A DNA stretch of 63,989 bases from contig CM119270.1 in the NCBI GenBank assembly GCA_051294375.1, positions 19,665,741 through 19,729,729 of the forward strand, in the 5' to 3' direction. Both the position numbers and the translations under genes were made by a program. The notes beneath the pieces were generated by a model. It was not told where the DNA came from, did no database searches, and saw only the letters and a program-made list of their open reading frames with translations. Origin of the DNA: Paraspadella gotoi (lineage: Eukaryota > Animalia > Chaetognatha). Every line of letters starts with the position of its first letter. The first letter of the stretch is position 1. Positions 13,752-44,538 of this stretch are shown here, piece after piece.

Positions 13752-13786
<35 letters not shown>

Positions 13787-14206: not shown

Positions 14207-14244
<38 letters not shown>

Positions 14245-15261
14245 TTCTCTCTTCTCTCTCTCTCATCGGTTACAATAATCAAAAATGTTAATGATCCTTT
14301 CTTTTCCTTGGATTAACCGTCGCGAGGGGAAGACGCGTTTCCATGGAAACAGCAGCGAGAGGATTGAAAACAATTTTATTTTTTTTTGGTTTTTAATCAA
14401 TGATGTTCGGCCTCGATCATGATTATCTCTCTCCGGCTTCGTTTTTTTTTTTTTTTTATTAATTTCATTATTATCTATTTAGAGATAAGGACTCCTTGAC
14501 GAAGAGGCGGTTTGCTTTTTTTTTTTAATGCGTCACGCATCCGTGTAAGAAATACTTCTTTGGCGAATCGATAGGTTAATTTTTAATAATGAATACAACG
14601 ATTATTTATATATTATAAAAAATAATTAAAACTATTTCGGATTTTAAGATTAATGATTTTAAAAATTAACGGTTATTAGACAACTGCTTATATAAAATAA
14701 ATGGATTGGGCGTTGCATTATCTGGGACAAGAAGAGACACTCGTTCGTCTTTTCTCATTATCGATTAATTTCTCCTGTGGTAAAGAGGACGGTTGTTTTT
14801 TTAAGGACGAGAATGAATAAAAAATTAGGAATGAAATGAAGAGAAAATTGAAGAAGGAAAATGAATAATTCACGACGTTTGATTATGTTATAGATGAAAT
14901 AATAGTAGTGGTTAAATAGATACATACTTTATTTATAATCATGTTTCAAAAATTTGGCAGAGTAGAACTAAATAAAAAACAAATTGTTTTATCAAATCGT
15001 CACTAGAAAAAAAATTATCTTCAAATGACGTCATTATAAAATGAAAAAGATAAACCTCATCAGTGACAAGACTATCACAAGAAATTGAGAAATATCGTAC
15101 AACCGATAAAAAAAACCCGGCCGAAGATAGAAACGTTTTTTCTGATCAGAATCGAAAAACTCAATTCCCGGACACTTGGTCAACCATTTTGTTATGACGG
15201 CTTTTCTTCAGCCCATCTTCTCTCTCTCTCTCTCTCTCTTCTCTCTCTTCTCTCTCTCTCT

Positions 15262-15301
<40 letters not shown>

Positions 15302-15713
15302 CTTATATGTCCAGCTTTCGTCTGGTTTCTTGCTCTTGTTTCTAGGCATTTGTGTTGTGTTTCTTTCTTTTTTTTTCTCTCTTCTTACATTTTTCGTCGC
15401 TTTCTCCTTTGTTTTCATTCCTCTCCGACTTTCTTCGTCTCCTACTTTAATTTTCATGTCTTCTCTTTTTCTCATCTCTGCATCATCTTTCCTCGTCGCG
15501 CATCAATACGACGAGAGAAAATCGAAAAAGGAAACTAAAAAAGAAAAATTAAATAAACCAACTAACAATATTTTTATATTTCTTTTGTGTTCCAATTTTG
15601 TTTGTTTTTTTTATAAAATTTTATTTGTCTTGATTTTACGATTATTCTGTTGCTCCGAAAAATACGACAGCAAAACTTAAAACAAAATCCAGAATATCTC
15701 TTAAAAATTCTTT

Positions 15714-15810
<97 letters not shown>

Positions 15811-16685
15811 TCCCTAGTTTTCCATTTTCAAATTGAGAAGGATTGAACCCAATTTTTTTATTTTTTTGATGGAACCGAGAGAGGAAGAATTTCCACAACG
15901 AATCTGAGAAGATTGATTCTGCCAAAAAAAAAAAAAAATATTTAGATGAATTGTCTGTATCTCTTCTGCTCTGTTCTTCTGCTCTCTCTTCCGTCTGCTC
16001 TGTTTTATTTTTGACCATTATTTTTTAATGTTCTGCACTTTGCACACTTCTCTTTTCTTACAGTAAACGGTTGTGCTTCTGTTTACAAAGTCCTCGCTGT
16101 ACTTACATCTTCGTAAGTGGTTATCGTATCTTTCGGCCTTCGAAACTTCCACTTTTTTTTTGGTTTCCTTTGACAACGAATCGATTTTCGTTTTTTAGTG
16201 AAAAGGAAAACGTTGAATTTTTTTTTGGAAAAAGTGAATTTTTTTAATTTTTTTAAAATTAAAAAGATAATAATGATCGAAATGGAGACTAAATTTGTTT
16301 GTTTTTTTTCTGCATTTTTTTTTTTGTTCGGAAAATTTGTATTGAAAAAAAATTAGGACAAAAACGATTTTTCTTATTGTTTTTAAAATTTTATGGTTTT
16401 CTATTCCGTGTTTTGATTTCTGATTTTTCTTGATTTTATTATTATTTTTTACTATTCATTTATCATTTAGTTATTTCTATTTATCAGTATTATATTTATA
16501 ACATAAAGAATTGCAAGATTACTTGTTACTAATTAAGAATAAATAAAAACTAAATTAAAAGAATATAAAAGTTAAATATATTTTCTACAAAGTATTTGAA
16601 ATAAATTAATTATTTCATTAATTCATATTCAATTATAAAGTATTTAATTATTAATAATGTATTTAATTTCATCCTCTTATTTCAG

Positions 16686-17341
16686 ATTTTTTTCCCTTCG
16701 AGGATGGGAATCGCCCTCAACTTCACCCAAACTTCGGCGCCGGCGGAAACTAAACTCGGTGATTGCCGGGATTCGAACGGGAACTTTCTCGCCCCCTCAC
16801 TCCCTCCACAGCTACGACAATTCTCCCGAGCCGACGAGGCGTTCCACCCCAGAAGCACCGTCGATCCCGCTTTCCGCCCTGCCCACTTTCCGATCATCCT
16901 CACCCGAAGCCCCCCCCGGCCCCCTCGCCCTCGATCCTCTTTCCGCCGCAGCCGCCCTTTCGCCGCAAGCCACTTGCAGCGCCGCCTTCTTCCTCCCACC
17001 GTCGTTCCCCGGCGCCTTCAGATCCTCCAGCGAACGACAGAAGCCGCGATTTCTCGACGACCGGCCGGAGGATAAGCCGGAACCGGCGATTGCGCGCCGT
17101 GCGGGAAGCACCGAGGAAAGGGCGCCGAGCCGGGAGCGGCGAGAAACAACGCTGGAATCAAAGCGCGAAGAAAGGGCTCGACCAGAATGGAACCGCCGGG
17201 AAAAGAGCCCCGGTTCCGTTTAAATTTCTGGCGTTCAAAGCGCCGAAAGAAAAACCCGTGGCGCCGAAATCAGAGAAAGAGAATGGGAATTGATGACGCC
17301 GCTTGGGAGTCGGAGAAAGTCATCTTCAGTTGATGAGGAGG
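16686..17341 (+). CDS. Noisy duplicate of exon 31186-31808 (frame broken by read indels)
   Basis: Collinear with 31186-31808, same splice sites, scattered single-base insertions. Confidence 0.5.
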
Positions 17342-17350
17342 GTAAGTTAG

Positions 17351-17439
<89 letters not shown>

Positions 17440-18001
17440 CTTCTCTCTCTCACTGTTTTTAATACAATTACCTTTGATTTTTTTCAGAAAAACAAACTTT
17501 CTGCTAGCATCATCACTTACATCAACACAGAGCTGGAATTCTCAAAATTTCTTCAAACGGTAACTATGAATTTTAAAATATTCTGTAGAAATATTAAAAT
17601 ATTTAATGACTTAAAAAACTAAGACAATTGTACAATGTACATTTGCGTCGATAAGTTGAGTGTTAATCTCACGCGTCTTGTTTCATATTCTTCGTTGCAA
17701 TTATTTTTTTTTCTTTCGATCACGTAACCATCTCGGTTTTTCCTTTCACGTGATCAAATCTTTGGTTGATTCGAGCCCCGGGCTGCTCTGTCGCGGTCTG
17801 TCTGTCTTTCTGTTTTGTCTGTCAGTCAGATTGCTTAAAAAAATGTAAAATTGTCAAAAGGTGCGTTGACCTAATTAGTATTTATATTTTATTGGATTGA
17901 ATACGGATCGTGCAAAGGCCGCATCTACAAGAGACAGACGAGAGAAAGATGAGAGAAGAGAGAATGAGCGAGAGAGCACGAGAGGAGATGAGAGAGAGAG
18001 A

Positions 18002-18046
<45 letters not shown>

Positions 18047-18384
18047 TCTGTCTGTGTATGGAGAGGGAGGGAGGGCCATTTAGCGCGCAAACGGTCACGC
18101 CTCAAGTTCACATCGTCTTCTCCCTCAAAATTGTTCCTTTTTTTCGAGGACGGACGTTAGGGTCAGGAGAGGTGGAGACGAAAGAGGGAGAGGGAGAGAG
18201 AGATGGAGACTGAGAGAGAAAAGAGACAGAGAGACGGATGTGAGCAGGAAAGGACAGAGGACAGAGACAGAGACAGAGACAGAGACAAAGAGAGGGAAAG
18301 AGTTCTTTCATCCTCGTTTTGGCCAATCAAGGTTACATGGAAAAGGAGATCGTTTGAGCCGTTTGGAGAAAGATGATTGATGTG

Positions 18385-18770
18385 AAATGAGTGATTATGT
18401 TGATTGAGTTATTACGTGATTTACTGAGTGACTTGATGATAAGTGACTTTGATGTGATTGAGTGATTATGTGATTACTGGTGATTGAGTGATTGAGTTAT
18501 TATGTGATTTACTTGATGTGATTTGAGTGATTGAGTTATTATTGATTTACTGAGTGATTGGAGTTGATTTGAAGTGATTATTGTGATTACTGAGTTGATG
18601 AGTTATTGAGTTATTTATGTGATTTACTGAGTGATTTGAGTATTTGAGTGATTATGTGATTTACTGAGTGATTGAGTGATTGAGTTATTTAGTGATTTTA
18701 CTGAGTGATTGAGTGATTGAGTGATTATGTGATTTACTGAGTGATTGAGTGATGAGTTAATGACGTGATT
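18385..18770 (+). repeat. GTGATTGA-based satellite (~28-bp higher-order unit GAGTGATTGAGTGATTATGTGATTTACT); copy at 32860-33205
   Basis: Visible tandem array. Confidence 0.85.
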
Positions 18771-20086
18771 GAAACATTTGATCGATTAAATAATATAGAG
18801 ATTTGGGCCGAAGGACGAATCAAATTATCGTGTATGGGAAGCGAAAAAGTTAAATTTATCCTAAATATCAAATACGATGGTTGGATTTAATTAGTATGAA
18901 GAGAGAAAAAAATTATTTAGAATTTTTAGAGCTCGATAATCATTAAACTTCATGATTTTAATAAAAAAATAGCTCATTAATAATTTCTCAGAGTTAGCCT
19001 CGGAATTAAATACATTTTTGTTCTTGGAAATCGAGACTTAATGTCTCATATCAGAAATAGAACCAGGACATTCGAGAGCATTTGACCAATCTCCATCAAA
19101 CCGAAACGATTGGGAAATCGAAAAGAGCTTGGAGCCTCGACTCCAAGATTTCCTTTATTACTCTCTTCCTCGCCCTCTTTTCTCAACGTTCTTTTATTAA
19201 TTTTTTTCTTTTTAACCCATTATCCCTTCTATACTTCTCTCACTTTCCTCTTTTCCTTCTTTACTCTCTCTTCTCTTCTTATTTCCTATCTTAATATCCG
19301 CTCGTGATTTGGACGATGTATAAGCGCCGTCGCCTTTCGTGGGTGAAGAGCGATGATTGGGTCGAGTCGATGTGGAGGTGAGTGAAGCTAGGTTATAGTT
19401 ACTTGATGAGAGCGAGGGTTGGGTAAGGCGGGAGAGATCGAAGCAAGTGAGGGCCGGGCCCGTGGTAATGGACGCCGCCGGGTCGGAAAGCGAATATGCA
19501 AAATGAATTGGCGTTTCTCTTTGGCGGCCGCGGAGGAGACCCCGAGTTCGAAAACGCGGGGTGGACGAAGAGAGAGAGAGAGACGAGAGAGAGATGAGAA
19601 AAGAGGAGAGAGAGACGATGAGAGAGAGAGAGAGAGAGAAGAGAGAGAGAGTGAGAGAGAGAAAAGAGAGAGAAGGATAGGGTTTCTAAGGGGCGTCGAT
19701 TAGTCCTTTGTTGTTGTTGTTTTGTCGACGGAGGCCGGACTTTCCCTTGGAGGGAAGAGAGAGGAGGAGGGAGGCGCCCGCGTCGGGCCGCCTGGAGCAA
19801 GGCTATGAGCTTCGTTGACCCCGGAGTGACCCGATTGGCACGGCCTGGGGTCTTTTATGTCCATCGGAAAAGGGGATTGCCTTGAAAGGATTGCGGATTC
19901 AGAAAATGAACTCTATTCATTATCATCATCGGCTGTTTTTTTTATCTTCAAAAACTTTTATACCGACGTTACTAACATCGAATGTTCTATAATTTCATTA
20001 TTTCAGTATTCATATCTCATATTACCGCAAAAACTGAAATTCTCTTGATCAAATCAAATCCCTCTCGCTCTCATCTTCTCTCTCTC

Positions 20087-20117
<31 letters not shown>

Positions 20118-20125
20118 GCTCTCTC

Positions 20126-20175
<50 letters not shown>

Positions 20176-22609
20176 GATTAACCCATATGAGATGCGTAAA
20201 AAATACAAACTTCGTTGTCATCCACCTTAAATTTCTCGCAACCCAAAGATTTTAAGCTTACCACAGCCAAACTAACTATCTGCCGCCACCGTACGATTTA
20301 CCCACAGCTGCTTCGAGGAATGATTTACCCACAGTCGCCGCCGGCCTACGATTTTACCCCACTGCTTTTGCAGTTGGGAAAAAAAATCGCGAATCGATTC
20401 CCCAGAGGATTTTTCGTTTTTTGCGCGGGGCGCGGGGGCGGTGGGTTTAGGGGGAGGGTGAGGTTAGGGAGGAGAGAGAGAGAAAGCGGGGAACGGGCAG
20501 AAAGTGAAGCCGATAGAAAACTGCGCGCGTTTTGAAAAATGCTTTTGGTAAGGAATGTGTCCCAGCGGAAAGATGCGCGTTTGCGACCGACTGCAGGTGT
20601 TCATCGAAAAAAAAATTGTCATTGGTTAGGATTTGAACATGGCAAACATATTTTAAATCTGTTAGAAAGGTACGGGTTACTGCCAGTTAATATTATTATT
20701 TCAAACTACTATTGTTATTAATTTTTTTTAAAACAAGTGGGACTTTGGCCGAATTTTGCAGTTTACCAATACCGCCGATTATTTCTTTGTGATGTGAACT
20801 TTTTCTGATAGATACACTTGTGATATCAACGATTTTACTTTTTCGTGATAAAGACTTCCTTTTGTGAGAGAGTGATTGTACTTTTTTTGATAAAGACTTT
20901 CTTTTGTGAAAGAGTGATTGTACTTTTGTGATAAAGACTTCCTTTTGTTGAGAGAAAGCGATTTGTACTTTTGTGATAAAAGACTTCCTTTGTGAGATAG
21001 CGATCGGTATTTTGTTGATTAAAGACTTCCTTTGGAGATAGCGATTGTACTTCAGTGACACAGCGCCTGCGAGGGTTTCACGCGTCGACGATCGGAGAGA
21101 GAAAATTACGAGACGGCGGGTCGCGGTCGTCTTGTTGTGTTGTCGTTGTTGTTTTTTAAAGTCATCGTCGTTGTCGTTCGTCGTTTTAGATTTGACCGAG
21201 GGAAAGATTTAACATTTTAAGCGCACCATCTCCCATATATCATCAATCCTTATTGTTATTTTGATGTCAACGAGTAGATCAGCGAAAAAACTCACTCATC
21301 ACGTCGTCGTCGTTCATTGTTCGTCGGTCGTCGTTAAGAAATCACACCTCACCAGTTTCACTTTCAAGCGTCAATGTTTCACTGTCGTCGCGGTTTTTGT
21401 AATCAATGTCATCGCGTCGTCGGCTGTCATAGCTTCTATCATTTTCCTAACCTCCCCTTCCACCTTTACCCCTTTTCTCTTTTTCCACTGATATTCCCTT
21501 CCCTTTCCTCCTCCCTTTCTCCCCCCACTCCTCTTCCTCTCCCTTCTCTTCCCTCTCCCTCTCTCCCCCTCCCTCCCCCTTTCTCCCCCCGCCCCCCTTC
21601 TAGCACCCGACGAGGGGGGAGAAACCAATTTCTGGCACCAAAAGGACTCCGACGTCTTTTGTCATGGAAATTGTTTTTTTTTCTTGGATCCTGGTTGAGT
21701 GCGAAGCGCCCGTCCTGTCGTGAGACGACGAGACTAGAAAAAAACCCGATGCTCTTTTTTTTTCACTCAGTGTGCGCGCGAATTTTTTTTCTTTACTAGA
21801 TGGCGCATTTTCGGTGGAAAGGCAGAGCCAGATATTTTTTCGTAAACGCTGTATAGTTATTGTTTATTACATTACATATTATATATAAATATATATCATT
21901 AAATATATCATTTAATATATTGCAATATTCATATGAGTTTCATTAAGGTTCATGTTGGCTTTGTTAAATTATGTCAGTAAGGAATTTCTGTTTTCAAGGA
22001 TTGCCTTAGGAAAAACTGTTCTCCTAACATTTTTAATTAAAATTATCCCAAAACGAAAAAAAAAGCAAAACTTTTTATAGCTTTAGTAAAAATTTTTTTG
22101 TCTCTGGCAAAGAAAAAAAAAATTTCAATGTTTCCCGCGATTTTTTTTTCAAGATTTTTTTTACCAGAAAATCTCTTTAACTTTTCGCGGTTTTTTAATC
22201 CCCGTCTTTCATTCAAAAATTCATCTTTTGTTCATCTCATCGTAACTTTTTTAAGGTTTTTTATCTTTTCTTCGCGGACGACGGAAAAAATACGGGAAAA
22301 AAGTTAACTAAAAAACTAAAAAACTAAAAACTAAAAACTAAAATAAAAACTGAAGACATTTTGAACCATGGATATAGTATAAAAATTATAAAGAATTATA
22401 AGATTTGGTTGATTTTGGCACACGCCAAGTTTTATTTACAAAAATTAGTAAATATCGGAAAGCAGCAAGCGATGAAAAGACTCTGTCTCTATCTCTGTCT
22501 CTATCTCAAGAGATGACGACTCTTGTCTCTTATCTTGGACAGATTTATAATTAATTACTTTTCAATTCGGCGGAGAAGGAAATGTATCCACGACGGGTAT
22601 GAGATTATT

Positions 22610-22745
22610 TTTATCAAGCCATGACCGGCAAAGCCGGTTCAGGCTTGATATTCATTCGGGTGAGCTTCTTTTGAACGTAGTCGTCGTCCGTTTCGTCCGT
22701 GTCCGTACGCTGTTTTTCCATAATAAAAACTACTACGCTTTATAG
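22610..22745. mobile_element. Left end of a Helentron/HINE (DINE-1/pearl-like) non-autonomous element
   Basis: T-run, then hairpin TATCAAGCCATGACCGGC-AAA-GCCGGTTCAGGCTTGATA (22612-22650), then a GTCGTCGTCCGT..GTCCGT microsatellite-like tract; this layout is typical of HINE ends. Confidence 0.5.
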
Positions 22746-23536
22746 GTTGGCTGTGACTTACCGTTTTTTTAAAATAAAAATTATTATGAATTTATGATTA
22801 AAGTTTTACAAAAGTGTGATTCCATAGTAAGTTAAAAATTTAGATATGCTTTCTCATCTTGAAATAGCTTTGATATTTTCTTATTACATTTGGATTTAAG
22901 TATTTTTTGTTTGAATTTCCACTTCATTATAATTTACTGCCAATATGCCAAATAAGCATTTATATTTACTCATTTATTTTTTCATATCCAAATTAGTATA
23001 TAGAAATGCCTTTAAATCTAATTTACATATTGCCAGATATAATTATTGAAGAGAAATTCAAAAAATTTATTTTAAATCTCTATTTTAATAAAAAATGCGA
23101 AACTCAAAAGTTAACTTTTTAATGAGGAAGCATATCTAATTTAATACAATAAAAAATAAAATCTTTTACAAAGCTGCGATTGGAAAAAATTGGAAAAAAT
23201 TTCAAATTGTAAACCATTGTAACATTTTTTTGCCTTTCTTTTATTTATTTTATTCTTTTTATTTCAGAAAAAACGAGTTCAGTTTCTTGCACTGACTGTA
23301 CAGCGGCCTTCAAGCAGCTGTCCAGCTTTGTCTCTCTTTCTCTCTCTTTCTCTCTCTCTCTTTCTTTCTCTTTCTGTCTTCTTTCTTCTCTTTTCGATCT
23401 TTTGCCTGTTCGTTCTTTTTGAAAAATTATTGATTATGTTTTTCTTTCTTTTATGTATATACTCTCTTTTCGTTGTTTTGAGGTATTAGGAAAACAGTTT
23501 TGTTGACACACGATTTATTTGACACAATTTTTTAGT

Positions 23537-23580
23537 ACAGACATGTTTCGGCTCTTTTCATCTAGAGCCTTCATCAGTGT
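23537..23580 (-). ncRNA. Minimal type I hammerhead ribozyme (Penelope-like-element type), core complete
   Basis: Minus strand reads ACA-CUGAUGA-A-GGCUCU-AGAUGAAA-AGAGCC-GAAAC-AU-GUC/UGU: stem I ACA:UGU, conserved CUGAUGA and GAAA boxes, 6-bp stem II, palindromic ACAUGU mini stem III, GUC cleavage triplet (predicted cut between 23540 and 23539). Confidence 0.85.
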
Positions 23581-23875
23581 TTGAACAATCAATATTTTGT
23601 CTCTGTTGAAGTAAGTTTTTGATAGAGAGAAAGAGGGAGAGAGAGAGAGAGAAAAATTGAGGGAGAATTCCAAACAAAGAATAGGTAAGGGACAGTGGTC
23701 AGAGATGTGAGGACAGCTGAAGGTGAGGAGAGGGAAGAAGTAAGTCTTTTGAAAAATGAAATGAAGTGGGAGAGAGAGAGATGAAGAGCAAAGCAAAAAC
23801 TTACTTCAACAGAGACAAAATATTGATTGTCAAACCACTGATGAAGGCTCTAAAATGAAAAGAGCACGAAACATG
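23542..23875. mobile_element. Inverted-repeat cassette carrying two hammerheads; probable Penelope-like pseudo-LTR remnant
   Basis: ~80-bp arms 23542-23621 and 23794-23875 are reverse complements (..GTCTCTGTTGAAGTAAGTTTTTG / CAAAAACTTACTTCAACAGAGAC..) around a 172-bp GA-rich spacer; AATAAA about 20 nt downstream of the minus-strand cleavage site in this copy. Confidence 0.6.
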
Positions 23876-23876
23876 G
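23835..23876 (+). ncRNA. Hammerhead ribozyme core, inverted partner copy, 3'-truncated
   Basis: CUGAUGA-A-GGCUCU-AAAAUGAAA-AGAGC(A)C-GAAAC-AUG; similarity to the minus-strand copy stops after GAAACAUG, so the GUC and the 3' strand of stem I are missing. Confidence 0.7.
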
Positions 23877-24814
23877 TTTTTCTTTCTTAAAAACTTTATT
23901 CGGGGCTTTTTTTCTTCAATACAAAATCCCCAAATTTACATTCCGAGATTTTTCGTGGATACATTTTTAAAAAAGTGAAGGAATAACTTATATTGGACAT
24001 GCATTGTCAACATATAAATCAAGCTAATGTGACTTATTATATATGGCAGCACTTTCGCCAAACAATATTGCATTAAAATTTTAAAAAAAATAAATTTTGT
24101 AATTTATTTATATATTTGTAACTTTGAAACGGGTTGGCCACTATTGGCAAATTAATATCTTAAAATAGGAGTTGATAAGATAGATATTTAGTCAAATTAA
24201 ACATTACTTTTGTTAATTCTGATTAATTTATTTACTATTATTTAAATTTTATAAATATTTTTTAGTGTATATAATATTAATCATTTTATCTTTTTTTTTA
24301 AATATAATTATGAGTTGTGATAACTTATTTATAAATTAAATTAAATATGCAAATATAAAATTTTGACCTCCGATCTGGGTTTCTTCCTAAAAAAAGACAA
24401 TCAAAAATATTCATTCAAGATTAAAATTTTTTAAAAATGAGGAAATAAAATTTTTTTTGATTAAGTAAAAAAAAAATATTTTGTAAGTCAAAAAATAAAT
24501 CATAAGGGGGGTTCCGGGTTTAAACTGAGGGTAAATTTTTCCAAAAAATATATATTTTTGTTAATAGAATATAATTTTTGGTCATTTATTATTGAAATAA
24601 ATTTTTTTTCTTCTGAATAGGGGTAGCCCCTCTTCAATGGAGGTTGAATCAAAAATTTAGTATGGGAAACAATGCTCAAACGAAAATTTATGCATTTTAA
24701 GTATACTTCAATGTACAAAAAGTTCTTATTATGGCCTCTATACCCAAATATTTATTTTGTTAATATTTTTTTATAGAAAGGAAAGAGTTTCGTCCCTACT
24801 CATATTTTCGTCGC

Positions 24815-24883
24815 GAAAATGAGTTCAGCTCTGCAGCGGCGCGTCAGCGCGTTCCAGCGGGGCGTCCAGCTTCTCTCTCTCTC

Positions 24884-24940
<57 letters not shown>

Positions 24941-25328
24941 CCTTCTAAAAACTTTTATTTATCGCCATTTATTCGCCGCCTTTTTCTCAATACAAAATCC
25001 CAAATTTTACATCGAGATTTTCGTAGATTTTTTCTTGGGGTGTGCATCGTTCTAAACTACTTAGTATTTTTAAATTAAATTTGCGCTACCGATCGACAGG
25101 AAATTAAAAATATTATCTACATGCAAAATTTTATCAAATCGGATAATTCGTTCAAAAGTTATGCCAGATAAACGATCGCCGAAAATCGCGCTTCGAAACC
25201 GATCAACTTTCGTTTAAAATCGAACTCGTTTTGATCCAACAAAGATTCTACTACGCGTAGTTTTAAGCTTTTTAAACTGGGCGAATCCGCTTTAGGCGCG
25301 ACCGGGGCCTCGTAGGCGGTAATCTAAA
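24815..25328. mobile_element. Helitron/Helentron-like body and right end
   Basis: 24815-25035 resembles 23272-23345 joined to 23880-23965; contains CATGCAAAATTTTATCAAATCGGATAATTCGTTCAAAAGTTATG; ends with GC-rich hairpin ACCG..GCCT-CGT-AGGC-GGT (25301-25320) followed by AATCTAA. Confidence 0.35.
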
Positions 25329-28283
25329 AGAAAAAACGTCAAAGAAGGGGAAATTAGGACAATTAAAAAAATAATTATTACAGAAAGGAAAGACCAATTC
25401 ATAAAAAAACCCAAAACTAAAGTTATCTTGTACTTAAATTTAGAATTATTCTGCCTTTATAAACGAATGAAGAAGACGGCGGACCAGCCACGAAATATTT
25501 ATACCATTTTTTAATTTACTTGAAAAACAAAAATCGCAAAAAAATCATGTAGTATTGTAGAGAATATGGCCCCTTTCCCCCTTATTTATTTTGTTTGCCT
25601 TTGTTTTACCGTTTTCTGCCGTTTAGATTTCGCTTTTCTTTTCTTTAGGAGATTTACTCCTCTTTCTTTTTTACCAGGGATATTCTAGGCCCATTAGTAC
25701 TTATGACTTTTCCCTCCGGTCATCAACTGCCTTCTAGTAACTCGATCACACCCAGTGACAATACCCACGGCCGGTACGGGCTCACGTCGCCGACTTACGG
25801 CCGCGAACCGGCCGACTTCCGTCATCACGGCGATCGACGTCTTCGAAGCCACGCGCAACGGCGTCAGACGCGGCCACGATCCATTTCCGGGAATCGTCTT
25901 GCCGGGGGGCGGAGGAGGACTACTATTTATATTTCATTTATAAAAAATTATATTCTTAATTTACATTTTCGTTACAAAAATAAAAATGACTAACTAGACC
26001 AAAAACTAAATGATTAAATAGTATATTAAATAGCTAAATTAATAAAAGCGGGGTGTGGACGCTAAAATAACAGGGGATTTATCCAAAACCAAACATTCAT
26101 TAGGATACTATTATAATGAAGAACATATACAAACGCCCGATTTCATCTTTAAATTCGGATTTATTATTTGTTTTTTTTAATCATTAAAGACTAAATCGGT
26201 ATGTTTAAAATATGATTCGGTAATGGCGCAAGGTGAGTGATTATAAGTTACGTGAATAGGCTTTGAGAGCTAAGGTAAATAAACTTAAGGGTTTACAGTT
26301 AGGGTTAAGGACTAGGTCAAAAGATTTAGATGAAAAGTTAAGGGCATTGGGCTTATATAAATTTAATTTTACTTTAAATTTTAAGGAATAAAATTAAATT
26401 TTTACGATAAAAAACCCAAAATTTGTAGCCTTATGTAAAAATGACATACAAATATATTTAATTTTTTTTTATTAATAAAGAATATTAATATTTATGAAAT
26501 TGGTACAACCAATATAAAATTATCCATTCATTTACTAAATTAAGAAAGCAGGTTGTTGACAACTAAAAAGACAAAGGATCAACGATTATATAAAAAAAAA
26601 AATATTAAAAAAAAAAATAACTTATTATGTTAACTTTTAATCTTAGTAATTAAGGTAACCTAATATTATTAAAATAAATTTAGCGTTAAATATTAATGTT
26701 AAAATTAAATAACTGGAATACAAGAACAGAAATTTGGCATTTATGCAAAATTAAAATTACATAATAAAATTTTATGATTCAAAGGCCCTGTAATTTTACC
26801 AGCTTAGAGATGCCGATCGTTCCAGTCAAAATTTTTAAAATAACTATTTAATACCCGGGACGTATTGAAAATCTGTTTGGAAGAAAGAAAGAAAAACATG
26901 GTCCAAAACTTCATTCTCTGAATTAAAAATCTATCTAACTAGCTATTTTACATGTTTTAACCCGGCCATCTCCCACACTAAGGTATGATATAATAGATAA
27001 ATATAAGTAAATAATGAAATAATATTTTTTTAAATCATATAATCATTCCAGTCACAATTTAATATAATTAATTAGATTAATTAATTAATTAATTATATTT
27101 GATGTTTAGTATAATTAACCATATTTTGGATCGACCAAAACATTTTGATTGACAAAAACATTGGATACGACGAAAAAAACCCAAGTTGCATTTATAATTT
27201 ATACATTATATTATGCAAACCTATATTATAATCATAAAAGTCATGCCAACTTAAAAAATTTTGAATAAACAAAGAACATTTGAAATAGAAAAACACTTTT
27301 TGATATCATATCAAGTGTATATAATTGATGTAACATTATATATAGAACTAGTTAGTTACTATCAAAGTCATATCCTTTAGATACAAGTTTGAAAAAGAAA
27401 TCCACTCAGTTGAGGGCAATATAGAAGAGAAGGAGATTGAGAATTTGCAGAGAAATAAGATTTCAAGATAATTTCACCTGATGCAAAAAATTTCAAACCT
27501 AATCATCTGATTTCCTCTCACAAGCAGTCAGTTCTCCTCTCTCTCTCTCTCTTTCACATTTACAAACGCCGGTCTCTCTCTTTTTTCCCCCTTTACATTT
27601 CCTTTTACAAGTATATATTTAATCTATTATTTTAAATGATTAATCTAAAATACCTTAAGTTGTTTCTCAAACGAACTTATATAAATATTTAATCACATGC
27701 TTCCAAAAAATTACATTTCATCTCTCTCTTTTCCCGCCTTTTTTTCTCTCCCCCATCGAGAGAACGGATTCCACTGATGGATGATAATTCAGTTCCATTC
27801 GATTCGCGCTGACATCAGACGAGACCTCTCTCNNNNNNNNNNNNNNNNNNNNNNNNNNNNNNNNNNNNNNNNNNNNNNNNNNNNNNNNNNNNNNNNNNNN
27901 NNNNNNNNNNNNNNNNNNNNNNNNNNNNNNNNNNNNNNNNNNNNNNNNNNNNNNNNNNNNNNNNNNNNNNNNNTGTTTCTCTCTTGCTTTTCTTCTTTCT
28001 CACCTTTGGTAGTTTTTTTGTTGTAATTTTTCATTACTGTCTATTTTTCTGTCGTTTTCTCGCCTTCTCTATCTATTTTTTTTTAATTTCCTGTCTACTT
28101 TCTGTCCTCTTAGTGTATGTATTTTTTTAAGTAACCTTGTCTATCCGTCTGTTAGTTGCTTTCTTAGTATTTATTTTTATTTATCTTTATGTATTTTTTT
28201 TCCTTTTTATTGATTTCCTCTCACTCTTTCCTCTCTTGCTTTTTCTCTTCTTTCTTTCTGTCTCTCTCTCCCTCCCCCTTTCT

Positions 28284-28381
<98 letters not shown>

Positions 28382-28762
28382 ATTGACAATATCACCCATC
28401 TCGCTAATGCGCCTCGATTGTTCGAGTGACGTTAGCAATGTCCGCCTAATGGCGCCATCTATGAAAAGCCAGCGGAAAATGACGGCGAAGAAAGGTTTTT
28501 TGTAATGATTATGAATCTCGGTCGGAGCCTGCTATATTTAAATTGTTTGAATACGTTGGTTAAACTTAAACTAAAGCTAAAACTAAAATACGGTGCACTT
28601 GAGAACGTAAAAATAAAAATTCTTGTGAAACTTATATTAAATATTACAAATAATCATAAATAAATGAGAAAAAAGAATCAGTATGCTAATTTAAGTCATG
28701 CTCGATGAACGGAAAGCATGTTATTGACCTCGTTCTTTCCTCTCTCTCTCTCTCTCTCTTCT

Positions 28763-28824
<62 letters not shown>

Positions 28825-29786
28825 CTCTCTCTCATACGGTTACAATAATCAAAAATGTTAATGAATCCTTTCTTTTTCCTTGATTAACCGTCGCGAGGGG
28901 AAGACGGTTTCCATGGAAACAGGCAGCGAGAGGATGAAAACAATTTTATTTTTTTTCTGTTTTTAATCAATGATGTTCGGCCTCGATCAATGATTATCTC
29001 TCTCCGGCTTCGTTTTTTTTTTTTTTTTTTTTTTTTATTAATTTTTCATTATTATCTATTTAGAGATAAGACTCTTGACGAAGAGGCGGTTTGCTTTTTT
29101 TTTTTAATGCGTCACCGCATCCGTGTAAGAATACTTCTTTGGCGATCGATAGGTTATATTTTTAATAATGAATACAACGATTATTTATATATTATAAAAA
29201 ATAATTAAAACTATGTTCGGATTTTAAGATTAATGATTTAGAAATTAACGGTTATTAGACAACTGCTTATATAAATAAATGGATTGGGCGTTGCATATCT
29301 GGACAAGAAGAGACACTCGTTCGTCTTTTCTCATTATCGATTATTCTCTGTGGTAAAGAGACGTTTGTTTTTTTAAGGACGAGAAATGAATAAAAAATTA
29401 GGAATGAAATGAAGAGAAAATGAAGAGAAAATGAATAATTCAACGACGGTTTTGATATGTTTATAGATGAAATAATAGTAGTGTTAAATAGATACATATA
29501 CTTTATTTATAATCATGTTTCAAAAATTTGGCAGAGTAGAACTAAATAAAAACAAATTGTTTATCAAATTCGTCACTAGAAAAAAATTTATCTTCAAATG
29601 ACGTCATTATAAAATGAAAAAGATAATAACCTCATCAGTGACAAGACTATCACAAGAAATGAGAAATATCGTACAACCGATAAGAAAAACCCGGCCGAAG
29701 ATAGAAACGTTTTTTCTTTGAGTCAGAATCGAAAACTCAATTCCCGACACTTGTCAACCATTTTGTTATGACGGCTTTTCTTCAGC

Positions 29787-29865
<79 letters not shown>

Positions 29866-30270
29866 ATGTCCAGCTTTCGTCTGGTTTTCGTGCTCTTGTT
29901 TCTAGGCATTTGTGTTGTGTTTCTTCTTTTTTTCTTCTTCTTACATTTTCGTCGCTTTCTCCTTTGTTTTCATCCTCTCCTGACTTTTCTTCGTCTCCTA
30001 CTTTAATTTTCATGTCTTCTTCTTTTTCTCATTCTCTGCATCATCTTTTCCGTCGTTCCGCGCATCAAACGACGAGAGAAAATCGAAAAAGAAACTAAAA
30101 AAGAAAAATAAATAAACCAACTAACAATATTTTTATAATTTCTTTTGTGTTCAATTTTTGTTTTGTTTTTTTTTATAAAATTTTATTTGTCTTGATTTTA
30201 CGATTATTCTGTTGCTCCGAAAAATACGACACGCAAACTAAAAACATCCAGATATCTCTTAAAAATTCTT

Positions 30271-30336
<66 letters not shown>

Positions 30337-31185
30337 TCCCTAGTTTCCATTCAAAATTTGAAAGGTGATTGACCCAATTTTTTATGTTTTGATGGAACCG
30401 AGAGAGGAAGAATTTCCACAACGAAATCTGAGAAGATTGATTCGTTGCCAAAAAAAAAAAAAAATATTAGATGAATGTCTGTATCTCTTCTGGTCTGTCT
30501 GTCTGCCTCTCTCTCCGTCTGTCTGTTTTTATTTTGACAGTATTTTAATGTCTGCACTTTGCACACTTCTCTTTTCTTACAGTAAACGGTTCTCTGTTTA
30601 CAAAGTCCTCGCTGTACTTACATCTTCGTAAGTGGTTATCGATCTTTCGCCTTCGAAACTTTTCCACTTTTTTTTGGTTTCCTTGACAACGAATCGATTT
30701 TCGTTTTTTAGTGAAAAGAAAACGTGAATTTTTTTTTGGAAAAAGTGAATTTTTTTTAATTTTTTAAAAATAAAAAGATAAAAATGATCGAAAATGGAGA
30801 CTAAATTTGTTTGTTTTTTTCTGCATTTTTTTTGTTCGAAAATTTTTTGTATTGAAAAAAAAATTAGACAAAAACGATTTTTCTTATTGTTGTAAAATTT
30901 TATGGTTTCTTCCGTCGTTTTGATTTCTGATTTTCTGATTTTATTATTATTTTTACTATCATTTATCATTAGTTATTTCTATTTATCAGTATTATATTAT
31001 AACATAAAGAATTGCAAGATTACTTGTTTTACTAAATTAGAATAAATAAAACTAAATTTTAAAAAGAATATAAAAGTTGAAATATATTTCATACAAGTAT
31101 TGAAATAAATTAATTATTTCATAATTCATATTCAATAAAGTATTTAATTAATTAATAATGTATTTAATTTTCATCTCTATTTCAG

Positions 31186-31808
31186 ATTTTTCCCTTCGAG
31201 GATGGAATCGCCCTCAACTCACCCAAACTTCGGCGCCGGCGGAACTAAACTCGGTGATTTGCCGGGATTCGAACCGGGAACTTTCTCGCCCCCTCATTCC
31301 CTCCACAGCTACGACAATTCTCCCGAGCCGACGAGGCGTTCCACCCCAGAAGCCCGTCGATCCCCGCTTCCGCCGCTGCCCACTTTCGATCATCCTCACC
31401 CGAAGCCGCCCTCCGCCCTCGATCCTCTTCCGCCGCAGCCGCCCTTCGCCGCAGCCACTGCAGCGCCGCCTCTTCCTCCCACCGTCGTCCCCGGCGCCGT
31501 CAGATCCTCCAGCGAACGACAGAGCCGCGATTTCTCGACGACGCCGGAGGATAAGCCGGAACCGGCGATGCGCGCCGTGCCGGAAGCACCGAGAAAGGGC
31601 GCCGAGCCGGGAGCGGCGAGAAACAACGCTGAATCAGAAGCGCCGAGAAAGGGCGCCAGAATGGAACCGCCGGGAAAGAGCCCCGGTTCCGTTAAATCTG
31701 GCGTCAAAGCGGCCGAAAGAAAAACCGTGGCGCCGAAATCAGAGAAAGAGAATGGAATGATGACGCCGGCTTGGAGTCGGAGAAAGTCATCTTCAGTTGA
31801 TGAGGAGG
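31186..31808 (+). CDS. Large Pro/Ser/Ala-rich exon (ATG at 31202, ~202 codons), likely N-terminal cytoplasmic region
   Basis: GC-rich island in AT-rich DNA, acceptor tatttcag|, uninterrupted frame MESPSTHPNFG...RRKSSSVDEEG, donor G|gtaagt. Confidence 0.7.
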
Positions 31809-32496
31809 GTAAGTTAGTCTCTCTCTCTCNNNNNNNNNNNNNNNNNNNNNNNNNNNNNNNNNNNNNNNNNNNNNNNNNNNNNNNNNNNNNNNNNNNNNNN
31901 NNNNNNNNNNNNNNNNNNNNNNNNNNNNNNNNNNNNNNNNNNNNNNNNNNNNNNNNNNNNNNNNNNNNNNNNNNNNNNNNNNNNNNNNNNNNNNNNNNNN
32001 NNNNNNNNNNNNNNNNNNNNNNNNNNNNNNNNNNNTACAATTACCTTGATTTTTTTTCAGAAAAACAAACTTTCTGCAGCATCATCACTTACATCAACAC
32101 CAGAGCTGGAATTCTCAAAATTCTTCAAACGGTAACTATGAATTAAAATATTCTGTAGAAATATTAAAATATTTAATGACTTAAAACTAATGACAATTGT
32201 ACAATGTACATTGCGTCGATAAGTGAGGTTAATCTCACGCGTCTTGTTTCATATTCTCGTTGCAATATTTTTTTTTCTTTCGATCACGTAACCATCTCGG
32301 TTTTTCTTTCACGTGATCAAAATTTTTGGTGATTCGAGCCCGGGGCTGTCTGTCGGTCTGTCTGTCTTTCTGTTTGTCTGTCAGTCAAGATTGCTTAAAA
32401 AAATGTAAATTGTCAAAAGGTGCGTTGACTAATTAGTATTTATATTTTATTGGATTGAAATACGATCGTGCAAAGGCGCATCTACAAGAGACAGAC

Positions 32497-32549
<53 letters not shown>

Positions 32550-34168
32550 TCTGTCTGTGTCGTGGAGAGGAGAGGCCATTAGCGCCGCCAAACGGTCACG
32601 CCTCAGTTCACATCGTCTTCTCCCTCAAAATTGTCCTTTTTTTTCGAGGAGGGACAGTTAGGGTCAGGAGAGGGAGACGGAAAGAGGGAGAGGGAGAGAG
32701 AGATGGAGACTGAGAGAGAAAGAGACAGAGAGACGGAATGTGAGAGAAAGAGACAGAGACAGAGACAGAGACAGAGACAGAGACAAAGAGAGGGAAAGAG
32801 TCTTCATCCTCGTTTGGCCAATCAAGGTTACATGAAAGGAGATCGTTGAGCCGTTGAGATGATTGAGTGAATGAGTGATTATGTGATTGAGTTATTACGT
32901 GATTTACTGAGTGATTGAGTGATTAAGTGATTGAGTGATTGAGTGATTATGTGATTTACTGAGTGNNNNNNNNNNNNNNNNNNNNNNNNNNNNNNNNNNN
33001 NNNNNNNNNNNNNNNNNNNNNNNNNNNNNNNNNNNNNNNNNNNNNNNNNNNNNNNNNNNNNNNNNNNNNNNNNNNNNNNNNNNNNNNNNNNNNNNNNNNN
33101 NNNNNNNNNNNNNNNNNNNNNNNNNNNNNNNNNNNNNNNNNNNNNNNNNNNNNGAGTGATTATGTGATTTACTGAGTGATTGAGTGATTGAGTAATGACG
33201 TGATTGAAACATTGATCGATTAAATAATATAGAGATTTGGGCCGAAGGACGAATCAAATTATCGTGTGGGAAGCGAAAAAGTTAAATTTATCCTAAATAT
33301 CAAATTACGATGTGTTGGATTTAATTATGTATGAAGAGAGAAAAAATTATTTAGAATTTTTTGATGAGCTCGATAATCATTAATTACTTATGATTAATAA
33401 AAAAAGAGCTCATTAATAATTTCTCAGAGTTAGCCTCGAATTTAAATACATTTTTGTTCTTGGAAATCGAGACTGTAATGTCTCATATCAGAAATAGAAA
33501 GGACATCGAGAGCATTTGACCAATCTCCATCAAACCGACGATTGGGATCGAAAACGAGGCTTGAGCCTCGACTCAAGATTTCCTTTATTACTCTCTTCCT
33601 TTTCGCCCTCTTTCTTCAACTTCTTTTATTAATTTTTTTCTTTTAACCATTATCCCTTCTATACTTCTCTCACTTTCCTTTCTTTTCCTTCTTTACTCTC
33701 TCTTCTCTTCTTATTTCCTATCTAATATCCGCTCGTGATTTGACGATGTATAGCGCCGTCGCCTTTCGTGGGTGAAGAGCGATGATTGGTCGAGTCGATG
33801 TGGAGGTGAGTGAAGCGAGGTAAGTACTTGATGAGAGGAGGGTGGGTAAGGCGGGAGAGATCGAAGAAGTGAGGGCGGGCCCGTGTAATGACGCCGCCCG
33901 GGTCAGGAAAGCGAATATGCAAATGAATTGGCGTTCTCTTTGGCGCCGTCGGAGGAGACCCCGAGTCGAAAACGNNNNNNNNNNNNNNNNNNNNNNNNNN
34001 NNNNNNNNNNNNNNNNNNNNNNNNNNNNNNNNNNNNNNNNNNNNNNNNNNNNNNNNNNNNNNNNNNNNNNNNNNNNNNNNNNNNNNNNNNNNNNNNNNNN
34101 NNNNNNNNNNNNNNNNNNNNNNNNNNNNNNNNNNNNGAGAGAGAAGGATAGGGTTTCTAAGGGCGTCA

Positions 34169-34550: not shown

Positions 34551-34581
<31 letters not shown>

Positions 34582-34589
34582 GCTCTCTC

Positions 34590-41925: not shown

Positions 41926-42916
41926 GTAAGTTTCAAACAGTAGACGATGTTATTTTTGTTTTTTCTTTATATTTTTGACTCAAAGTACAAAAAAAACGCA
42001 NNNNNNNNNNNNNNNNNNNNNNNNNTGATATTCATTCGGGTGGCTTCTTTTGACGTAGTCGTCGTCCGTTCGTCGTGTCCGTCACGCTGTTTTTCCATAT
42101 AAAAACTACTACGCTTTATAAGGTTGGCTGTGACTTACCGTTTTTTTTTAAAATAAAAATTATTATGAATTTATGAAAAGTTTTACAAAAGTGTGGATTC
42201 ATAGTAAGTTTAAAAAGTTTAGATTATGCTGTTCTCCATCTTGAGAATAGCTTTGATATTTTCTATTACATTTGAATTTAAGTATTTTTTGTTTGAATTT
42301 CCAACTTCATGAGTAATTGTACTGCCAATATGCCAAATAAGATTATATTACTCATTTATTTCATATCCAAATTAGTATATAGAAATGCTTTAAATCTAAT
42401 TTACATTATTGCGGTCAGATATAATATTGAAGATGAAATTCAAAAAATTTATTTTAAATCTCATTTAATAAAAAATGGAAACTACAAAATAACTTTTTAT
42501 GAGGAAGCTTATATCTTAATTTTAATACAATATAAAAATAAAATCTTTTACAAGCTGCGATTGGAAAAAATTTGGGAAAAATTTCAAATTGTAACCATTG
42601 TAACATTTTTTGCCTTTCTTTTATTTATTTTTATTCTTTTTATTTCAGAAAAACGAGTTCAGTTTCGGTGCACTGACTGTACAGCGGCCTTCAACAGCTG
42701 TCCAGCTTTGTCTCTCTTTCTCTCTCTTTCTCTCTCTTCTTTCTTTCTCTTTCTGTTTCTTTCTTCTCTTTTCGATCTTGTTGCCTGATTCGTTCTTTTT
42801 GAAAAAATTATGATTATTTTTCTTTCTTTTATGTATATACTCTCTTTTCGTTAGTTTTGAGGTATTAGGAAAACAGTTATTGTTGACACACGATTTTTAG
42901 TGACACAATTTTTTAG

Positions 42917-42963
42917 TCAGACATGTTTCGGCATCTTTTCACTAGAGCCATATCATCAGTGTT
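42917..42963 (-). ncRNA. Hammerhead ribozyme, duplicate-assembly copy of 23537-23580 (noisy)
   Basis: Minus strand ACACUGAUGAUAUGGCUCUAGUGAAAAGAUGCCGAAACAUGUCUG; same motif with read-type indels. Confidence 0.7.
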
Positions 42964-43229
42964 TGACAATCAATATTTTGTCTCTGTTGAAGTAAGTTTA
43001 ATTGAAAGAGAGAAAGAGGGAGAGAAGAAGAGAGAGAAAAATTGAGGGAGAATTTCCAACAAAAGATAAGGTAAGGGACATTGGTCAGAGATGTGAGACG
43101 CTGAAAGGTGAGGAGAGGGAAGAAGTAAGCTTTTGGAAAAATGAAAATGAGGAGTGCGGGAGAGGAGAGAGATGGAGAGAGCAAAGCAAAAACTATACTA
43201 TCAACAGAGACCAAAATATGATTGTCAAC

Positions 43230-43269
43230 ACACTGATGAAGGCTCTAAAATGAAAGAGCCGAAACATGG
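43230..43269 (+). ncRNA. Hammerhead core, duplicate-assembly copy of 23835-23876
   Basis: ACA-CUGAUGA-A-GGCUCU-AAAAUGAA-AGAGCC-GAAAC-AUG-GUUUUU; perfect 6-bp stem II and the same 3' truncation point. Confidence 0.75.
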
Positions 43270-44538
43270 TTTTTCTATTCTTAAAAACTTTTATTCGGGG
43301 CTTTTTTTCTCAAATACAAAATCCCAAATTTAACATCCGAATTTTACGTGGATACATTTTAAAAAAGTGAAGGAAATAACTTATATTGACAATGCATTTG
43401 TCAACATATAAATCAAGCTATGTGACATTATTATATATGACAGCACTTTCGCCAAACAATATTGATAAAATTTTTAAAAAAATAAATTTTGTATTTATTT
43501 ATATATTTGTACTTTGAAACGGGTGTTGGCCACTATTGGCAAATTATATCTTAAAAAGGAGTTGATAAGAGAGATATTAGTCAAATTAAACTTACTCTTT
43601 GTTATTCTGATAATTTATTTACTATTATTAAATTTTGATAAATATTTTTTAGATGTATATAAATTAATCATTTTATCTATTTTTTATAAATATAATTATG
43701 AGTTGTGATACTAATTTATAAATTAATTAAATATCAAATATAAAATTTGACCTCGATCTGGGTATTCTTCTAAAAAAAGAACAAGCAAAAATTTCATTCA
43801 AGATTAAAATTTTTTATAAAATGAGGAAATAAAATTTTTTTTGATGTAAGTAAAAAAAAATATTTTGGAGTCAAAAAATAAATCATAGGTTCGGCTTAAA
43901 CTGAGGTAATTTTTTCAAATATAATATTTTGTTAATAGGAATTAATATTTGGTCATTTATTATTGAAAAAGTTTAGTTTTTTTTCTTCTGAAATAGGGGT
44001 AGCCCCTCTTCAATGGAGGTTGAATCAAAAATTTAGTATGGGAATACATTGCTCCAAACGAAAATTTTATGCAATTTTAAGTTTACTTCATGTACAAAAG
44101 TTTTTCTGGATGTTTGATTTTAATTAACAATTTTGTCACGTGAGACTAAATACGTTTCCAAGGAATTGAATATTATAAAAGAAATGTTATTAATGGGAAT
44201 ATCTAGAAAGTATTAGCAAAAGATAAAGTACACTAAAATATAAAAGGGGGGCGATAATTTGAAGGCTATGTCATACGGAGAACCATTAAGAAATTTCATT
44301 AATAACTAATTTTGACAATATTTTAATGAAATGACAATATTTTGATATTCGAACGTTTCTTTACTAATTGTAATATCCAGCATAGAAATGCAGTCTTCGC
44401 CTGTTAGTAGTTTCAATACTTTTTTAAAATTTAAAACAAAAAACGAAACAAAAAAAACGACACGTTTTTTCCTCATTGTTTTTCTTCGCTTGAACGAAGA
44501 AGCTTTTCGGGCAATTTCCAAATCCACAGATGCAGAGC

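What the first reader, a model, noticed from the sequence alone, without database searches (positions are those of the whole stretch)
23400..23880. Divergent inverted pair of minimal hammerhead ribozymes in a small protein-free cassette
Seen: ~80-bp inverted arms each contain a CUGAUGA/stem II/GAAAC hammerhead core pointing outward around a 172-bp GA-rich spacer. The minus-strand copy is complete (ACA:UGU stem I, palindromic ACAUGU, GUC site). The structure recurs in the duplicate-assembly copy at 42917-43269. Known: minimal hammerheads with a palindromic stem III lie in Penelope-like element pseudo-LTRs, cleave as dimers, and PLE insertions often carry an inverted partial pLTR. Inference: this is a non-autonomous PLE-derived or retrozyme-like unit of under 500 bp. 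Each transcript polarity would carry one ribozyme core plus its antisense, so it could fold into an ~80-bp hairpin that sequesters the ribozyme.
Basis: partly seen in the sequence, partly recalled or inferred. Interest (0 to 1): 0.85.

Follow-up and report, generated by a model that had tools for sequence, protein, structure and literature searches.

The report
Penelope stump with inverted hammerhead end
This is a real but ordinary 425-base leftover, most likely of a Penelope-type jumping gene, laid down with a short mirror copy of its end: only one of the two motifs has a cutting site, an RNA read across both is predicted to zip into a hairpin rather than cut, and the piece was likely multiplied as a passenger inside a larger repeat.

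Summary
The inverted arms (23542-23621, 23794-23875; 82 nt, 93%) and both hammerhead cores are real and present in short-read contigs. It is not a pair of ribozymes: the plus-strand copy stops 2 nt before the GUC site. The minus-strand stem I is 2 bp, not 3, because the third pair rests on a long-read error. The true unit is 23451-23875, flanked by a 12-13-bp target-site duplication, with empty-site contigs found. It is a 5'-truncated Penelope-like (PLE) 3' end plus an inverted partial pLTR, set beside a (CT)n tract of a larger high-copy repeat with a Helentron/HINE-like left end. The same PLE 3' end occurs at other loci. Opposite-strand minimal hammerheads 100-700 bp apart were described in 2014 (PMC4209133), and this scan has noted the layout repeatedly in other genomes. 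No tandem copies were seen, so it is not a retrozyme, and nothing shows that the fold-back moves by itself. No linked RT/GIY-YIG ORF was found (no genome was available). Two modest twists remain: likely passenger amplification in some samples, and the inverted arm ending at the predicted cut site (one case). Known kind, low interest.

The parts
23451..23875 (-). Whole insertion, 425 bp: 5'-truncated PLE-type 3' end plus inverted partial pLTR, non-coding
   Evidence: Bounded by TSD; empty-site contigs; no meaningful Pfam hit in 6 of 6 frames
23438..23450 (+). Left target-site duplication (12-13 bp, T/C-rich)
   Evidence: The 13-mer occurs only here and at 23876 on the + strand; chance 0.0046 under a local Markov model
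23876..23888 (+). Right target-site duplication, abutting the inverted arm
   Evidence: 3 X8 contigs run from 23449 directly into the sequence after this repeat
23542..23621 (-). Left arm of the inverted repeat (sense copy, collinear with spacer and 3' end)
23538..23579 (-). Minimal type-I hammerhead: 2-bp proximal stem I, CUGAUGA, extra A, 6-bp stem II, GAAAC, palindromic ACAUGU, predicted cut 23540/23539; activity untested
23451..23539 (-). 89 nt downstream of the predicted cut; outer ~34 nt (23451-23484) is a candidate optional PLE 'tail'
   Evidence: one X8 contig whose likeness stops near 23485 and goes on with another flank
23622..23793 (-). 172-bp spacer, CT-rich on the element's inferred sense strand; likely 3' UTR/pLTR up to the 5' truncation point
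   Evidence: loose ends diverge to the right of 23737-23740
23794..23875 (+). Right arm: inverted partial copy, core truncated at GAAACAUG, 2 nt before the cleavage site; cannot self-cleave in cis
22608..22706 (+). Left end of the host repeat, HINE/Helentron-like: T run, subTIR-like 22613-22624, inverted repeat 22638-22649, GTCC-type microsatellite
   Evidence: Hairpin -17.7 kcal/mol; motif positions; features as in PMC4067079 and PMC7492417
22700..24700 (.). High-copy host repeat around the cassette (right end not determined); includes the (CT)n tract 23326-23393 next to the insertion
   Evidence: Covered in 28-30 of 30 bins by deep, fragmented contigs in 4 of 4 runs
24797..25033 (+). Diverged paralog of the host module in which both flanks are joined through (CT)n without the cassette
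   Evidence: Alignment scores 130 and 93 against shuffle maxima 57 and 48
42781..43291 (.). Second, noisier assembly of most likely the same locus

Best explanation
It is a 425-bp, protein-free insertion flanked by a 12-13-bp target-site duplication, most likely a 5'-truncated Penelope-like (PLE) 3' end joined head-to-head to an 82-nt inverted copy of its own pseudo-LTR, and likely multiplied afterwards as a passenger of the larger repeat it landed in. Steps: (1, inferred) a PLE RT/GIY-YIG protein encoded elsewhere cut T-rich DNA beside a (CT)n tract of a high-copy repeat. (2, inferred) One cDNA started 89 nt downstream of the hammerhead cut site and stopped after about 343 nt; a second, opposite cDNA copied 82 nt of the same pLTR; repair joined them and left the TSD (TSD and empty site shown). 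(3, inferred from depth) The host repeat, with a HINE-like left end, was then amplified with the cassette in some samples. (4, shown by sequence) Only the minus copy has a cleavage site. (5, predicted) It is a dimer-type minimal hammerhead with a 2-bp stem I, and any read-through RNA folds into an ~80-bp hairpin that blocks it. The hammerheads are therefore by-products of PLE insertion, not a working switch.
For: TSD abutting the arm end, empty-site contigs in X8 (3 contigs) and a cassette-free paralog at 24797-25033. Contigs that start at 23450-23454, some with long other flanks (X7 record 18: 368 nt, of which 286 are other flank; X3 record 10), show the same 3' end at other loci. The PLE min-HHR hallmarks of PMC4209133 are met: extra nucleotide between 9 and 10.1, G10.1-C11.1, palindromic 15.2-16.2/loop 3, long helix II, short helix I. 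Inverted pLTR + 8-10-bp TSD + 31-bp tail are described in PMC3846280. The 89 nt from cut to 3' end match 85-92 nt in the anole PLE (cut at +26, RT start at +111-118; PMC11167929). Folding: -127.9 kcal/mol, z -15.8; 43.6 against 6.3 kcal/mol. Passenger amplification: in X3, summed depth is 53,000/77,000 on either side of the left junction and 56,000/90,000 at the inversion junction, comparable to host flanks of 37,000-69,000; X3 record 9 bridges the left junction. The same core in a metagenome contig (L002) lies next to an inverted, decayed RT-like frame.
Against: The L002 link comes from another organism and is weak: 39 hits at E 1e-6 to 9e-4, 1 of 39 with a sub-threshold RVT_1 match; Pfam, PDB and the word-indexed search gave nothing useful. 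Depth sums are uncalibrated and, by the tool's own note, no copy number. No listed contig bridges the inversion junction by the 31-letter rule (best: 24 letters on the short side). The right-junction bin is 0 in X7 and X8. The listed empty-site contig is a diverged host copy (10 differences in 52). The TSD is low-complexity and blurred in the second assembly copy. The host's 3' subTIR was not found in this copy. The inverted arm ends 91 nt short of the 3' end, not at the usual pLTR end.
Confidence: 0.82

Rival explanations
1. The 425-bp fold-back is a non-autonomous mobile unit of its own (retrozyme- or MITE-like), copied whole by a PLE protein, possibly inserting repeatedly into the same site of the host repeat.
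For: High depth over the inversion junction; intact TSD; near-identical arms; pLTR sequences suffice for trans-mobilisation in Adineta (PMC3846280).
Against: No tandem arrangement. Among the 24 of 121 loose ends shown, none gives another flank at the inverted-arm end, and depth at both junctions matches the same host flanks in X3 and X2. The hairpin would bury the hammerhead.
Confidence: 0.09
2. A functional divergent module: a promoter in the GA-rich spacer makes two sense RNAs that do not anneal to each other; the truncated plus-strand core pairs through 5 of the 6 palindrome bases and cleaves the complete minus-strand RNA in trans.
For: The geometry allows it; bidirectional pLTR promoters are proposed in PMC3846280; without the inverted arm the core is only 6.3 kcal/mol from open.
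Against: No transcription evidence. The palindrome duplex is weak (-4.6 kcal/mol for the perfect 6-mer), stem I is 2 bp, PLE min-HHRs cleave poorly even as dimers, and no conservation beyond repeat copies was seen.
Confidence: 0.04
3. The inversion or the cores are artefacts of a noisy long-read assembly (fold-back chimera) or of chance.
For: The window is error-rich with redundant segments; one claimed base pair is indeed an error; Rfam gives no significant hit.
Against: Short-read contigs from independent runs hold the core and both upstream contexts of the arm; TSD and empty site; 0 of 100 shuffles give the descriptor.
Confidence: 0.02

Closest known systems
Minimal type-I hammerheads (min-HHR) in pLTRs of metazoan Penelope-like elements, including opposite-strand pairs 100-700 bp apart (Cervera and De la Pena 2014, PMC4209133)
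   Same: Extra nucleotide at 9/10.1, G10.1-C11.1, long helix II, short helix I, palindromic helix III region; two cores about 260 bp apart on opposite strands; no ORF
   Different: Here the second core is cut off before the cleavage triplet; the parent ORF was not located
EN+ PLE insertion units with inverted 5' pLTR, optional 30-40-bp tail and TSD (Arkhipova et al. 2013, PMC3846280; Craig et al. 2021, PMC8557442)
   Same: Head-to-head inverted partial copy, TSD with empty site, candidate 34-nt tail, insertion beside a microsatellite
   Different: TSD 12-13 bp against 8-10 bp in Adineta; the inverted arm ends in the hammerhead rather than at the pLTR 3' end
Poseidon PLE of Anolis (PAc; Frangieh et al. 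2024, PMC11167929)
   Same: Distance from hammerhead cut to the element's 3' end: 89 nt here against 85-92 nt
   Different: No protein and no activity data here; no sequence comparison with PAc was made
Metazoan non-LTR retrozymes (PMC7229834; bioRxiv 10.64898/2026.07.22.740005)
   Same: Small, non-coding, hammerhead-bearing, PLE-related
   Different: Retrozymes are head-to-tail tandem repeats, typically with canonical type-I hammerheads, and give circular RNAs; this is a single head-to-head unit that could not be cut out by two same-strand ribozymes
HINE / DINE-1 non-autonomous Helentrons (PMC4067079, PMC7492417), for the host repeat
   Same: T run, 12-bp subTIR-like motif with nearby inverted repeat, GTCC-type microsatellite, high copy number, variable internal cargo
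   Different: 3' subTIR and palindrome not found in this copy; right end and empty site of the host not determined

Membership tests
PLE min-HHR | CUGANGA and GAAA boxes, G10.1-C11.1, extra nucleotide at 9/10.1, helix II | tested here: met
   Both arms; no substitution >=5% in the core in 4 runs
PLE min-HHR | Palindromic 15.2-16.2/loop 3, NUH site and helix I | tested here: met
   Minus copy only: ACAUGU, GUC at 23542-23540, 2-bp proximal helix I
PLE min-HHR | NUH site and helix I in the plus-strand copy | tested here: not met
   Ends at 23875 before UC; TSD follows
PLE min-HHR | Self-cleavage as a dimer | not testable with these tools
   Needs an in vitro assay
EN+ Penelope-like element insertion | Inverted 5'-truncated pLTR copy, head-to-head | tested here: met
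EN+ Penelope-like element insertion | Target-site duplication with empty site | tested here: met
EN+ Penelope-like element insertion | Dispersed copies sharing the 3' end | tested here: met
   X7 record 18 and X3 record 10 with other flanks
EN+ Penelope-like element insertion | Optional 30-40-bp tail | tested here: inconclusive
   One X8 contig ends about 34 nt earlier
EN+ Penelope-like element insertion | Parent ORF with telomerase-like RT and GIY-YIG | tested here: inconclusive
   None in the window; no genome held; weak indirect link through L002
Non-LTR retrozyme | Head-to-tail tandem units, each with a complete hammerhead | tested here: not met
   Only SSR arrays in 22500-25400; one complete motif per locus
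Non-LTR retrozyme | Expression as linear or circular monomer RNA | not testable with these tools
   No holder on record as RNA; only contigs available
HINE/Helentron (host) | 5' subTIR + inverted repeat + GTCY microsatellite after a T run | tested here: met
   22608-22706
HINE/Helentron (host) | 3' subTIR followed by a palindrome | tested here: inconclusive
   Not found downstream in this copy; the only exact inverted match is at 39166 in the duplicated block, without a clear palindrome
HINE/Helentron (host) | Insertion into TT without TSD; autonomous Rep/Helicase partner | not testable with these tools
   No genome held

The most novel reading that the evidence does not exclude
The inverted arm ends at GAAACAUG, 2 nt before the predicted cut, and abuts an intact TSD, so this end was made at insertion and lies 57-91 nt inside the family's normal 3' ends. 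It may be the footprint of a hammerhead-cleaved PLE RNA used as the second template: genomic evidence that PLE minimal hammerheads cut in vivo. The resulting ~80-bp anti-PLE hairpin was then spread to many loci by a rolling-circle host repeat, where it could feed small-RNA silencing of its own family.
Probability: 0.15. Interest if true: 0.55.

Novelty: new member of a known kind. Interest (0 to 1): 0.2.

Why it matters
As it stands it matters little: it is one more example of a common, described by-product of PLE insertion. It corrects the idea of a two-ribozyme switch. Two side points could matter if they hold. What hammerheads do in endonuclease-bearing PLEs is open (PMC8557442 calls it unclear; PMC11167929 found no RNA ends at the site and no need for cleavage in vitro), and inverted-arm ends that pile up at the cut site would be in vivo evidence. 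Also, a fold-back PLE stump carried to many loci by a Helentron-like repeat would be a ready source of double-stranded RNA against its family. Both are testable by counting junctions in a good assembly.

Tried and rejected
Whole genome: none held. Rfam: no significant hammerhead. Pattern scans: viral contigs 0 and 1 loci, genome contigs 3 loci, metagenome contigs 2 loci that are the same locus twice. None of these 6 has an inverted partner arm, so the arm-end question could not be extended beyond one case. Sequencing runs: 9 listed, all with small shares (0.05-0.15); no RNA holder listed; X9 is only guessed to be RNA and is contigs, so nothing is said on expression. Bins 23630-23669 have no cover because the tool skips that repeat. 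I first read the 42-kb copy as a second insertion because its flanks differ. I dropped this: the upstream 3 kb is also duplicated and resumes at the same base after an intervening 4.9-kb piece and a gap, the differences are indel-dominated, and a rare loop base is shared. The 96-aa minus-strand open frame (23515-23805) has no Pfam hit. Loose ends at 23538 were considered as truncations at the cut site and rejected: nearly the same consensus recurs in two runs, which points to a related family with another tail. The single A>G in the left arm's loop is one event and was not read as RNA editing. Pfam, PDB and the word-indexed search did not identify the L002 frame. A paper search for Penelope + Helitron + nested + hammerhead listed 1 unrelated review, and a scan-note search for passenger amplification gave 0; this is weak evidence that the passenger aspect is not in print.

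Full report
Setting. The window is an error-rich, SSR-rich eukaryotic long-read scaffold with 17 N gaps and several redundant segments of 75-93% identity. No whole genome was held.

Observation. Two arms of 82 nt (23542-23621 and 23794-23875, 92.7%) flank a 172-bp spacer that is 140 of 172 purines. Each arm holds CUGAUGA, one extra A, a GGCUCU/AGAGCC stem II and GAAAC, pointing outward. The minus copy continues AU-GUC, with C17 at 23540. A strict descriptor hits once in the window and in 0 of 100 shuffles. Rfam misses it: 31 window hits, none a hammerhead, and Hammerhead_3 at 13.7 bits, E 7.2, locally. The plus copy stops at GAAACAUG, so it has no cleavage triplet and no stem I 3' strand.

Short-read check. 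Nine runs of one coded organism hold small shares of the region; six were laid as contigs. Over 23390-23960 the substitution table is complete at 5 rows, none in the core boxes; 12 of 30 indel rows were shown, none in the core. The majority has T at 23562 (86692 of 91366 in X3) and often one base less in loop II. It lacks A23537 (19900 of 19991 in X3, 3535 of 3690 in X2, 909 of 1010 in X8, 602 of 1094 in X7), as does the second assembly copy. The arm is seen with both upstream contexts: GA-rich by depth across 23770-23809, and CT-rich as an X2 loose end before 23794. The inversion is real, although no listed contig meets the 31-letter bridging rule at that junction (best 24).

Boundaries. A 13-mer occurs on the + strand only at 23438-23450 and 23876-23888, the latter abutting the arm (chance 0.0046). 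Three X8 contigs run from 23449 straight into the sequence that follows the right copy (median 11 loose letters, 30-letter consensus; the listed one is a diverged host copy, 10 differences in 52). A paralog at 24797-25033 joins both flanks through (CT)n with no cassette (scores 130 and 93 against shuffle maxima 57 and 48). The insertion is thus 23451-23875 with a 12-13-bp TSD. Contigs starting at 23450-23454 with other flanks (X7 record 18, X3 record 10) show the same 3' end elsewhere. One X8 contig ends near 23485, 34 nt earlier, as expected for an optional tail. The cut site lies 89 nt from the 3' end.

Host. The whole of 22700-24700 is covered by deep, fragmented contigs in 28-30 of 30 bins in 4 of 4 runs. 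Its left end has a T run, a 12-bp motif with its near inverse (22613-22624, 22638-22649; hairpin -17.7 kcal/mol) and a GTCC-type microsatellite, which matches the left module of HINE/DINE-1 elements (passages of PMC4067079 and PMC7492417). No 3' subTIR was found in this copy. In X3, summed depth is similar over host flanks (37,000-69,000), either side of the left junction (53,000/77,000) and the inversion junction (56,000/90,000); the right-junction bin is 17,600. In X8 no listed contig bridges the left junction and the right-junction bin is 0; X7 has one near-bridging contig of depth 164 and a right-junction bin of 0. These sums are not copy numbers and were not calibrated. They suggest one insertion later amplified with the host in the samples of study P1. 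The copy at 42.8-43.3 kb is most likely the same locus assembled twice.

Mechanism. I infer two-ended, target-primed copying by a PLE protein in trans. The anole PLE cuts and extends both strands and starts RT internally, 85-92 nt past its hammerhead cut (PMC11167929, parts 1-2 of 4 read). A read-through RNA folds at -127.9 kcal/mol (z -15.8). Forcing the core open costs 43.6 kcal/mol with the inverted arm and 6.3 without it. PLE min-HHRs show no monomer activity and low dimer activity. The cassette is predicted to be inert as a ribozyme.

Link to a PLE protein. None was found in the window. The same core occurs in a metagenome contig (L001/L002, one locus) beside an inverted decayed frame with 39 relatives at E 1e-6 to 9e-4, of which 1 has a sub-threshold RVT_1 match. 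That their motifs look like Neptune-type PLE RT is my recall, not a call result. PLE membership rests on architecture and hammerhead type.

Literature. PMC4209133 (parts 1-2 of 4 read) reports dual min-HHRs about 100-700 bp apart on opposite strands, ascribed to truncated PLEs, and the hallmarks met here. PMC3846280 (passages) and PMC8557442 (passages) describe inverted pLTR, tail, TSD and microsatellite bias. Retrozymes are tandem (PMC7229834, passages; bioRxiv 10.64898/2026.07.22.740005, part 1 of 5 and passages). No supplements were read; the HHR alignments in the supplements of PMC4209133, which include arthropods, may hold a closer relative. Scan notes list the same layout in other genomes, and several cases of an inverted arm ending at the cut site, judged only mildly favoured.

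Verdict. A real feature and a new member of a known kind. PLE stump with inverted partial pLTR 0.82; self-mobile fold-back 0.09; divergent trans-cleaving module 0.04; artefact 0.02. Interest 0.2.

Noticed in passing
window 23794-23888: The inverted arm ends 2 nt before the predicted hammerhead cut and directly abuts the TSD, 57-91 nt inside the family's usual 3' ends; one case only.
   Followed up: partly
window 22608-22706 and 37039-37077: HINE/DINE-1-like left end (T run, subTIR-like motif, inverted repeat, GTCC microsatellite). In the duplicated block the hairpin is interrupted at TT by a 4.9-kb piece plus a gap (37078-42025) and resumes at 42026; an exact inverse of the 12-bp motif lies at 39166.
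   Followed up: partly
window 22837-23142: Imperfect ~300-bp AT-rich palindrome (67%); its left half is the deepest part of the host repeat in short reads (up to 1.1 million summed depth in X3), perhaps a separate, more abundant element.
   Followed up: no
window 24797-25330: Diverged paralog of the host module without the cassette, followed by further palindrome-rich sequence that looks like another repeat family.
   Followed up: partly
window 23537-23584 (contigs): At least one related hammerhead family with the same core but other upstream sequence and tail exists in this organism (loose ends at 23538, 23579, 23584; X8 records 29-31).
   Followed up: no
window 23670-23760: Part of the spacer is deeper than either arm in X3, X2 and X7, so it is shared with more copies or families; it carries several GT splice-donor-like motifs on the plus strand.
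   Followed up: no
window 13439-24720 vs 27974-44099; 44575-48387 vs 50662-54427: Large redundant segments with indel-dominated differences: the scaffold holds the same loci twice, so repeat counts in this window are inflated.
   Followed up: partly
window 53050-53215 and 46983-47153 (minus): Exon-like frame that resembles the start of a C-type lectin domain (recalled motif, not searched), present in both redundant copies.
   Followed up: no
L002 795-1460: Minimal hammerhead with the same core next to an inverted, decayed RT-like frame, with telomere-like repeats about 150 bp away, in a metagenome contig.
   Followed up: partly
L005 1501-1550 (minus): Hammerhead-like core with a 10-bp stem II in a bacterial MAG; stems I and III not examined.
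   Followed up: no
window 40700-40940: Long GA/CT inverted microsatellite pair that draws many spurious Rfam miRNA hits.
   Followed up: no
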